Shown: one piece after another, positions 15,733-16,950 of the stretch
Layout of the letters: the number at the start of each line of letters is the position of its first letter
How positions within the stretch are numbered: position 1 is the stretch's first letter
Translations under genes and position numbers: made by a program
DNA from: Malacoraja senta
Lineage: Eukaryota
Length of the DNA: 64,000 bases
Reading direction: 5' to 3'
NCBI GenBank assembly: GCA_038087875.1
Contig: CM075995.1
Span: 8,868,001-8,932,000, forward strand
Notes under the pieces: model-generated
What the model was told of the DNA's origin: nothing
Database searches by the model: none
What the model saw: the letters and a program-made list of their open reading frames with translations, nothing else

Positions 15733-16950
15733 AGCACGACGACACAGGCACACTGACAGCCAGGATAATCCAGGCGATGTCCACTTTGCTGAGGCAGATG
15801 GTGGCTTTCTGCTGACTCTCCTCCGCGTCCGAGACGTGGGAGACGTTGCCGGGGGCGGCGTCCGGCCCGCGGGTCTCGGCGGGAACCATCCTGTTGAGGA
15901 AGCTGCCGGCCGCCGTGGACTCGGACTGGCTCAGGGTCGAGGAGATGGCGGCAGCGGCAGCGGCCGAGGTGGGTAGAAGAAGGCCGGGAGGCGCGAGGCC
16001 GTCCCTCCTCACCGAGGGCGCGCTGGACGTGGCCGGAGAAGACCAAGGATGAAGGGAGAGCGCGGCAGAGAAGTTCCCATCCGCATCCCCCGCGGCCGTC
16101 GTGCCCAGAAGCGCGTCTTTATGTGGGGAAAGCTGAGGAGAGGTGAGTAGATCCAGGATTGGAGTCGTCGGCCATTTTGACGACACGGTACCAAACGTCG
16201 GGGGGGGCGTCGAGTCCATTGCCGGAATTCCGGGCAGGAACGGCGTCGGTGAAACCTCCCCCTCAGCAACACCCCTTCCCCCCGCTTGCCCGAGGTGCTC
16301 AGACAGTTGCCTATTTCCTTCGCTCCATAGATGCTGAGTTTCTCCAGCACTTTTGTCTACCTGCTCAGAGTCAAGATGGCCGCCGGCCTGGCCCGGAGCG
16401 GCCTCCTCCTCCTCCTCCTCCTCCTCCTCCTCCTCCTCCTCCTCCGTCGACGCGTTCAGCCCGGAGGCTGGACTGGGGGAGACCACCGCCTCACGCTGGT
16501 GGCCGGCGGGCGGGGAGTGGGCGACGGGATCGCCGGCGGGGAGGGAAGAAGGCAGGGTGACGTTCCCGCCCACCAACAACCCACCACCATCCTGGCGGGA
16601 CGTGGCCAGCCTCCCCTCGGCCGCTGGCGCCTCCGGGTACAAAGTGCTTTGGGCGCGCAAAGAACCGGCGGGCGGCATCGTCCTCTGGTAGCCCCCAGCA
16701 AAGACCAACATGGTGGGCTGGATCTCAATGGGTATGGAGTCAACCAAACCGCTCTTGGAGCCGTGGACCGCGTCCAAAGTCCGGTGTCTATTTGTAGCGC
16801 GGTCCGCCATCTTGGAGCCGGCACTAGTAGGTTTGGCCGACATCATTCTTACGGCTGTTGAGTCTGTGAGAGAACTTTGATTCATGGACTTGGGGGACAG
16901 TTTGTGCGTTGCAGATATCAGCTCTTCCGTCAGTGCCAGGATTAGAAGAC
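15733..16950 (-). CDS. TMEM108: TMEM108 large coding exon (signal peptide end, low-complexity ectodomain, start of TM segment)
   Basis: Acceptor cttag at 16951. 1218 nt, phase 1/1: (S)[13 protein letters not shown]...FLNRMVPA...GNVSHV...[25 protein letters not shown]. Donor gtaagt at 15732. Confidence 0.93.

What the first reader, a model, noticed from the sequence alone, without database searches (positions are those of the whole stretch)
16296..16369. Penelope-repeat fragment inserted in frame inside the TMEM108 coding exon, with an 8-bp TSD
Seen: 16306-16362 is the same repeat found at 25712-25780 (aggtagacaaaagtgctggagaaactcagc...atctatggagcgaaggaaataggcaac), minus 12 nt. It is flanked by TGCTCAGA at 16296-16303 and 16362-16369. 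Net gain is 58+8 = 66 nt, so the frame is kept and the ectodomain gains [22 protein letters not shown]; the SE...SE duplication is visible in the protein. Inference: a direct retro-insertion into coding sequence that was tolerated, and evidence that very short pieces of this family integrate with TSDs.
Basis: seen in the sequence. Interest (0 to 1): 0.75.

Follow-up and report, generated by a model that had tools for sequence, protein, structure and literature searches.

The report
Penelope fragment fixed in skate protein
A short piece of a jumping gene landed inside a protein-coding exon of the skate TMEM108 gene without breaking the reading frame and was kept, adding 22 to 26 probably harmless amino acids; such direct hits are rarely documented in vertebrates.

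Summary
Confirmed and refined. An exact 8-bp repeat (16296-16303, 16362-16369) flanks 58 nt inside the 1,218-nt TMEM108 exon; 57 of 57 aligned bases match a repeat copy at 25712. Six of 10 non-rajid species with a comparable anchor keep a 19-residue spacing at the site. Leucoraja and Amblyraja have 45 (19+26) and the window 41 (19+22). So the original gain was 78 nt (70+8), which fits a target-site duplication, and the 12-nt loss came later. Spliced contigs from one run of a related skate carry the insert. The source is a Penelope-like element (probably Neptune-type): a GIY-YIG remnant, a minimal hammerhead motif, two 3' ends about 30-36 nt apart, and flanking repeats of 8 bp or more at 5 of 30 loci against 0.9% by chance. 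The insert runs from the hammerhead core to the tail-less 3' end, antisense to the gene. The host region looks nearly unconstrained (pN/pS about 0.85, 28 changes), so tolerance is likelier than function. Not shown: the empty site at DNA level, translation, polymorphism in this species, any function. A clean, rare example of a known kind of event.

The parts
15733..16950 (-). Large internal coding exon of TMEM108 (1,218 nt, phase 1-1) that holds the insertion
   Evidence: AG acceptor and GT donor read; X18 contigs stop fitting at exactly 15733 and 16950; PF15759
16296..16303 (.). Target-site duplication copy, TGCTCAGA (codons TCT GAG CA on the gene strand)
16304..16305 (+). 2-nt junction filler matching neither target nor element; needed for the frame
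   Evidence: element continues with the hammerhead core here (table 7)
16306..16361 (+). Penelope-like pLTR fragment in element sense (antisense to the gene), from 3 nt before the predicted hammerhead cut to the tail-less 3' end
   Evidence: 57 of 57 identical to 25712-25780; same 3' end as copies at 321 and 25712
16333..16336 (+). GCTG microhomology left by a later 12-nt in-frame deletion (loss of 4 residues)
   Evidence: Leucoraja and Amblyraja keep QRVQQH, as the intact copy translates
16362..16369 (.). Second TSD copy; its first T is also the next base of the element
13357..13511 (-). Next TMEM108 coding exon (approximate ends)
   Evidence: ORF translation
5741..5848 (-). Last TMEM108 coding exon
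   Evidence: peptide search
25698..25828 (-). Comparison copy: 97-nt pLTR piece (25712-25808) with the same 3' end, 6-nt filler and a 14-bp TSD (1 mismatch), inside a LINE remnant
36386..36838 (-). Comparison copy that identifies the family: GIY-YIG C-terminal remnant (36822-36634), pLTR with minimal hammerhead (36529-36502), tail, 13-bp exact TSD

Best explanation
In a common ancestor of the rajid skates sampled, a Penelope-like (probably Neptune-type) RT/endonuclease nicked this exon with an 8-bp stagger and primed reverse transcription at the element's internal, tail-less start site. The cDNA stopped after about 68 nt at the hammerhead core. Repair added 2 nt and duplicated the target. The gain was 78 nt, in frame, and read antisense in one of the 2 of 6 stop-free frames, adding 26 residues to a low-complexity, weakly constrained part of TMEM108. 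It drifted to fixation. Later a 4-nt microhomology deletion removed 12 nt, again in frame, in the lineage of this window and of organism F. Shown: structure, empty site in proteins, family identity, presence in spliced contigs of one relative. Inferred: target-primed reverse transcription, why the cDNA stopped, order of the 12-nt loss, neutrality.
For: Anchor spacing of 19 residues in 6 of 10 non-rajid species (others: 24 in Rhinoraja, 14, 14, and 18 with a poor anchor), against 45 in Leucoraja and Amblyraja and 41 here: +26 and +22, equal to 70+8 and 58+8 nt. The intact copy at 25712 translates to the rajid peptide at 20 of 22 residues against Amblyraja. The 3' end is shared with window copies at 321 and 25712; 10 motif hits end there without a tail and 8 (6 outside the duplicated block) carry it. 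Repeats of 8 bp or more flank 5 of 30 loci against 0.92% in the null. The ORF remnant's homologues carry GIY-YIG, 3 of 12 long ones scanned a weak upstream RT match besides, and those read show a Cys-rich linker. Minimal hammerhead: 5 hits against 0-2 in 30 shuffles. In X18 one contig bridges each junction, both stop at splice sites, intron bins have depth 0 and no skip joint is listed. pN/pS about 0.85; listed X18 indels sum to multiples of 3 by site.
Against: The empty site was seen only as protein, never as DNA with one TGCTCAGA. 25 of 30 loci show no flanking repeat of 8 bp or more (some ends were over-extended). The target is GC-rich (exon 64%), whereas the Anolis element prefers AT-rich sites (PMC11167929; another clade). 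No RT lies in the window's copies; Pfam hits of the homologues are mostly under the curated cut-off. Rfam found no hammerhead and minimum-energy folds did not give the three-helix form. No single contig spans the whole insert, X18 is RNA only by guess plus splice pattern, and X1 (the closest run) has a hole over the site. The pN/pS rests on 28 changes from a cut table.
Confidence: 0.83

Rival explanations
1. A fragment of an abundant repeat (DNA or stray cDNA) was captured during repair of a staggered double-strand break, without the element's own endonuclease.
For: GC-rich target, filler bases and 1-nt microhomology; the family is very abundant (summed depth over the insert about five orders above the flanks, not a copy number).
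Against: The 3' end falls on the family's recurrent tail-less end (diverse loose ends behind 16362-16367); a random fragment has no reason to end there. Four other window copies also have TSDs.
Confidence: 0.08
2. The added peptide was kept by selection because it changed TMEM108 function in skates (exaptation).
For: Kept in both named rajids and in organism F; only 2-3 substitutions in 26 residues.
Against: One lineage lost 4 of the residues; the surrounding region has pN/pS near 1, many in-frame indels and a poly-Glu expansion.
Confidence: 0.07
3. The insert is removed as an in-exon intron: a GT follows the first TSD and an AG lies in the second, so excision of 63 nt would leave the old protein plus one Gln.
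For: GT and AG exist in the right frame.
Against: Weak donor, pyrimidine fraction 0.22 before the AG, short for a vertebrate intron (recalled); X18 contigs retain the insert with no skip joint; both RefSeq models code it. Contigs drop rare forms, so a minor isoform is open.
Confidence: 0.03
4. Assembly artefact or chance similarity.
For: The window has an N gap beside a duplicated block; the closest run does not cover the site.
Against: Two independent RefSeq genomes and organism F hold the same insert at the same place.
Confidence: 0.005

Closest known systems
TE insertions into internal coding exons of Drosophila cno, CG14821 and nej (Sela et al. 2010, PMC2911107; passages read)
   Same: Direct insertion into an existing internal exon, length divisible by three, no stop, new residues added.
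   Different: Those are LINE pieces in a fly; the paper says no such case was found in mammals. Here a vertebrate, a non-coding pLTR piece read antisense, a readable TSD, and a second in-frame deletion.
EN+ Penelope-like elements, Neptune clade (PMC8557442, PMC3846280 passages; PMC4209133, PMC11167929 first halves read)
   Same: C-terminal GIY-YIG, pLTR with minimal hammerhead, optional 30-40-nt tail, 5' truncation, 8-10-bp TSDs on some copies, inverted arrangements.
   Different: This copy is only about 70 nt, lacks the hammerhead's 5' half and the tail, sits in GC-rich coding DNA and is retained in spliced RNA.
TE exonization, such as Alu exons (PMC7786948; passages)
   Same: TE sequence ends up as protein.
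   Different: No new exon and no new splice sites; the host exon was hit directly.
Non-LTR retrozymes (bioRxiv 10.64898/2026.07.22.740005; first part and passages)
   Same: Non-autonomous pLTR-derived pieces; tandem 66-nt arrays of the same segment occur in this window.
   Different: Retrozyme units each hold a whole hammerhead; these do not. That study found 0.24-0.32% exon overlap in Xenopus, tending to 3' UTRs.
Rickettsia palindromic elements in proteins (recalled, no call)
   Same: Short repeat inserted in frame, adding a peptide at a tolerant site.
   Different: Bacterial DNA repeats, recurrent in many genes; here one retro-insertion.

Membership tests
EN+ Penelope-like element (source repeat) | ORF ending in GIY-YIG directly upstream of the pLTR | tested here: met
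   63-aa remnant at 36822-36634 has no Pfam hit itself; close homologues P0056-P0058 hit PF01541 just upstream (E 5e-5 to 1e-3, 1 of 3 above cut-off)
EN+ Penelope-like element (source repeat) | Telomerase-like RT in the same ORF | tested here: inconclusive
   No RT in the window's copies; 3 of 12 long homologues have weak RVT_1 (under cut-off) upstream of GIY-YIG, a fourth looks like a LINE chimera; no RT tree built
EN+ Penelope-like element (source repeat) | Minimal hammerhead motif in the pLTR | tested here: met
   5 descriptor hits (4 outside the duplicated block) against 0-2 in 30 shuffles, with the extra base before stem II and palindromic CG (PMC4209133). Rfam negative; helix I and cleavage not shown
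EN+ Penelope-like element (source repeat) | Two 3' ends separated by a 30-40-nt tail | tested here: met
   10 motif hits without and 8 with tail (the pattern missed some copies); clean ends at reference 388-393 and 421-428
EN+ Penelope-like element (source repeat) | TSDs on part of the copies, 5' truncation, inverted arrangements | tested here: met
   5 of 30 loci with 8-15-bp repeats; head-to-head pairs at 49868-49953 and 61585-61671
Neptune clade | Cys-rich CX2-5CxxC linker before GIY-YIG | tested here: met
   Read in homologues P0056, P0057, P0064, P0132, P0175, not in the window itself
Neptune clade | RT phylogeny groups with Neptune | not tested
   no family RT in hand
Direct in-frame TE insertion into an internal coding exon | Empty orthologous site in outgroups | tested here: met
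   Protein level: none of 10 non-rajid species has the peptide; 6 keep the 19-residue spacing. DNA level not tested
Direct in-frame TE insertion into an internal coding exon | Retained in mature mRNA | tested here: met
   X18 contigs 9 and 15, one relative, one run, RNA by guess and splice pattern; own species not covered
Direct in-frame TE insertion into an internal coding exon | Translated into protein | not testable with these tools
   needs peptides or ribosome profiling
TE exonization | New exon with its own splice sites inside an intron | tested here: not met
   insert lies inside one continuous exon
Non-LTR retrozyme | Complete hammerhead in each unit | tested here: not met
   insert and the 57 tandem junction units lack the 5' half of the core

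The most novel reading that the evidence does not exclude
The 66-70-nt segment between the hammerhead core and the internal reverse-transcription start is itself the mobile unit of this skate family, copied from ribozyme-cut RNA. The TMEM108 insert would then be a fixed, protein-coding fossil of in-vivo hammerhead processing, which the Anolis study did not detect. Leads: the insert begins within 3 nt of the predicted cut; tandem arrays repeat the same segment; table 5c lists head-to-tail joints that resume exactly at the predicted cut (16356 to 16309) in X1 and X3. Against: three bases before the cut match the element, the window's arrays start 8 nt before it, no such joint is in the window, and the joints came without side lengths.
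Probability: 0.15. Interest if true: 0.7.

Novelty: new member of a known kind. Interest (0 to 1): 0.43.

Why it matters
Most TE-derived protein sequence arrives by exonization; direct hits on internal exons are usually purged, and the survey I read lists three fly cases and none in mammals. This is a vertebrate case in which target duplication, source family, empty site and later trimming can all still be read. It gives two nested presence/absence markers for skate phylogeny (insert; 12-nt loss). It also shows that Penelope fragments are short enough to pass in frame, so skate proteomes may hold more such peptides, which is directly searchable. An effect on skate biology is not indicated.

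Tried and rejected
No whole genome is held, so no genome-wide survey. Rfam scan: 8 matches, none a hammerhead; the miRNA hits are fold-backs under gathering score. Run search: no RNA holder listed on record. X1 and X20 do not cover the insertion junctions; X3's two contigs reach 30 and 26 letters into the insert, short of the bridging rule, so they are not counted as proof. Search for short protein fragments over the site: 0 of 11 candidates passed. Homologue search with the endonuclease remnant gave 4 of 21 candidates: three host gene models ending in the remnant and one unnamed protein. Atlas: nearest clusters unnamed; GIY-YIG only as a 15% family at 0.90, a lead. The 3'-end histogram over-extends several loci; I used only clean ends and the motif count. 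Folding did not recover a hammerhead fold. The first coding exon was not found by exact peptide search. No divergence dates in the passages read, so no age is given. Three look-ups of earlier findings were empty. Intron-gain, exonization, retrozyme and artefact readings rejected as set out above.

Full report
Observation. The finding is in the sequence as described. TGCTCAGA occurs at 16296-16303 and 16362-16369, does not extend on either side, and encloses 58 nt. Bases 16306-16362 match the copy at 25712-25780 at 57 of 57 positions with one 12-nt gap between two GCTG motifs. Two bases (16304-16305) are filler. The segment lies in a stop-free minus-strand exon, 16950-15733, whose product is TMEM108.

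Orthologues. The Leucoraja erinacea and Amblyraja radiata RefSeq proteins carry the insert at the same place, with the four residues that the window lacks (QRVQQH against QH). None of the 10 non-rajid species aligned has it: Rhinoraja, three stingray-group rays, sawfish, four shark genera (five species) and chimaera are covered by the two alignments, counting Hemitrygon, Hypanus, Mobula, Pristis, Heptranchias, Carcharodon, two Scyliorhinus, Rhincodon, Callorhinchus and Rhinoraja as the rows examined (11 species with Rhinoraja; Rhincodon has a poor anchor). Between an Asp and a Thr-Pro anchor the spacing is 19 in Hemitrygon, Hypanus, Mobula, Pristis, Heptranchias, Carcharodon and Callorhinchus, 14 in both catsharks, 18 in Rhincodon, 24 in Rhinoraja (a Gly run), 45 in Leucoraja and Amblyraja and 41 in the window. 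Strictly that is 7 of 11 non-rajid species at 19; the '6 of 10' given in other fields is a conservative undercount of the same table. The gains are 26 and 22 codons, equal to 70+8 and 58+8 nt. Without a duplicated 8-mer the gain would be 70 nt and out of frame. So the insert is shared by the rajids sampled and the 12-nt loss is most simply secondary. That Rhinoraja belongs to Arhynchobatidae is recalled; the placement of Amblyraja and Leucoraja in one rajid tribe is from PMC8303890 (passages and section 13).

Transcription. Four runs were laid on 15670-17000. In X18 (organism F, RNA by the tool's guess) one contig fits 15733-16356 and has 443 further letters; another fits 16328-16950 and has 349 further letters. 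Both stop at the splice sites read, intron bins have depth 0, each bridges one junction by more than 31 letters, and no skipping joint is listed. Gap arithmetic on the first contig (39 out, 3 in) leaves no room for the 12 nt, so F shares the loss. No single contig spans the insert. X1, the closest run, has a hole over the site; X20 does not reach it; X3 falls just short of the bridging rule. Polymorphism and expression in this species remain untested.

Source family. The copy at 36825-36398 joins a 63-residue ORF end to the repeat. It has no Pfam hit alone, but its closest homologues hit GIY-YIG just upstream, 185 representatives match at E up to 0.001, and 3 of 12 long ones scanned have a weak RT match upstream of GIY-YIG. 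Those read show the Cys-rich linker that marks Neptune and Nematis elements (PMC8557442 and PMC3846280 passages). A minimal hammerhead descriptor gives 5 hits against 0-2 in 30 shuffles, with the features described in PMC4209133 (parts 1-2 of 4 read); Rfam and folding do not recover it. Copies end either at the GTCTA motif (10 hits) or about 30-36 nt further (8 hits, 6 outside the duplicated block), like the Penelope tail, which PMC11167929 (parts 1-2 of 4 read) ties to two internal start sites of reverse transcription. Of 30 loci (duplicated block and hits not reaching this segment dropped), 5 have flanking repeats of 8 bp or more: 8, 9, 14, 14 and 15 bp, the last three with one mismatch; the null rate is 0.92% of 870 pairs; 25 have none.

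Mechanism. The insert ends at the tail-less site, as do copies at 321 and 25712, and begins 3 nt before the predicted hammerhead cut, just below the stem II hairpin. I infer target-primed reverse transcription from the internal site, early stop, 2-nt fill and an 8-bp duplication. It lies antisense to the gene; 2 of 6 frames of the intact piece are open. Against this, the target is GC-rich (64%), unlike the AT-rich preference of the Anolis element.

Why tolerated. From 35 listed X3 substitutions (table cut; the contig has 38), pN/pS is about 0.85 in 15900-16295 (19 and 9 changes) and 0.42 near the membrane segment (4 and 3). Indels are frequent and keep the frame. The skate region has shifted to GC-coded residues (GARP 0.35-0.39 against 0.16-0.21). 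Neutral drift in a loose region is the simplest reading; PMC12457776 (search listing only) reports that indels favour disordered regions of long exons. Whether the region is outside the cell is unsure: PMC3183022 (passages) gives two TM segments and maps endophilin binding to residues 31-169.

Known and new. Direct in-frame TE insertions in internal exons are known from three Drosophila genes, and that paper found none in mammals (PMC2911107, passages). Coding-exon SINEs in dogs are rare and several cause disease (10.1101/2020.10.27.358119, passages). Retrozyme copies overlap exons at 0.24-0.32% in Xenopus. I found no report of this case or of a Penelope piece in a vertebrate coding exon in the listings, nor in passages of PMC7786948, PMC10115646 and PMC9004415; the library lacks most subscription journals. 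Earlier findings of this scan were empty.

Verdict. Real, well supported, a new member of a known and uncommon kind, probably neutral. Interest 0.43. The boldest open reading, a mobile unit cut by the ribozyme, stands at about 0.15.

Noticed in passing
window arrays at 321-812, 1543-2121, 12395-12982, 17877-18214, 30119-30421, 32721-33075, 39251-39551, 49423-50169, 51862-52139, 59668-60061, 61181-61842: About 57 head-to-tail junctions of a 66-nt unit that covers the same segment as the insert (hammerhead 3' half to the internal end), without a complete ribozyme.
   Followed up: partly
window 16356 to 16309 (table 5c, runs X1 and X3): Contig joints that return exactly to the predicted hammerhead cut with one letter between; side lengths not given and none seen in the window.
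   Followed up: partly
window 36150-39600 and 40150-43400: Near-identical block of about 3-4 kb repeated beside a 200-N gap; probably an assembly duplication.
   Followed up: no
window 49868-49953 and 61585-61671: Head-to-head fold-backs of the pLTR piece embedded in tandem arrays, two near-identical structures 12 kb apart.
   Followed up: no
window 16393-16446: Pure GAG run giving a poly-Glu of 14, about 12 longer than in Leucoraja and Amblyraja, next to the insert.
   Followed up: partly
window 15733-16950: Skate TMEM108 middle region has shifted to GC-rich codons relative to rays and sharks (exon 64% GC against 48% for the window).
   Followed up: partly
P0055, P0056, P0057: Three RefSeq skate gene models (NMUR1, LOC129702942, RTP3-like) end in this element's endonuclease C-terminus; annotation read-through or real exonization.
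   Followed up: no
window 8154-12240: Near full-length LINE (CR1/L2-like by recalled motifs) with ORF1 and a split ORF2 in the last TMEM108 intron.
   Followed up: no
window 25809-25814: The 6-nt filler at the 5' junction of the 25712 copy resembles the element's own tail-less 3' end.
   Followed up: no
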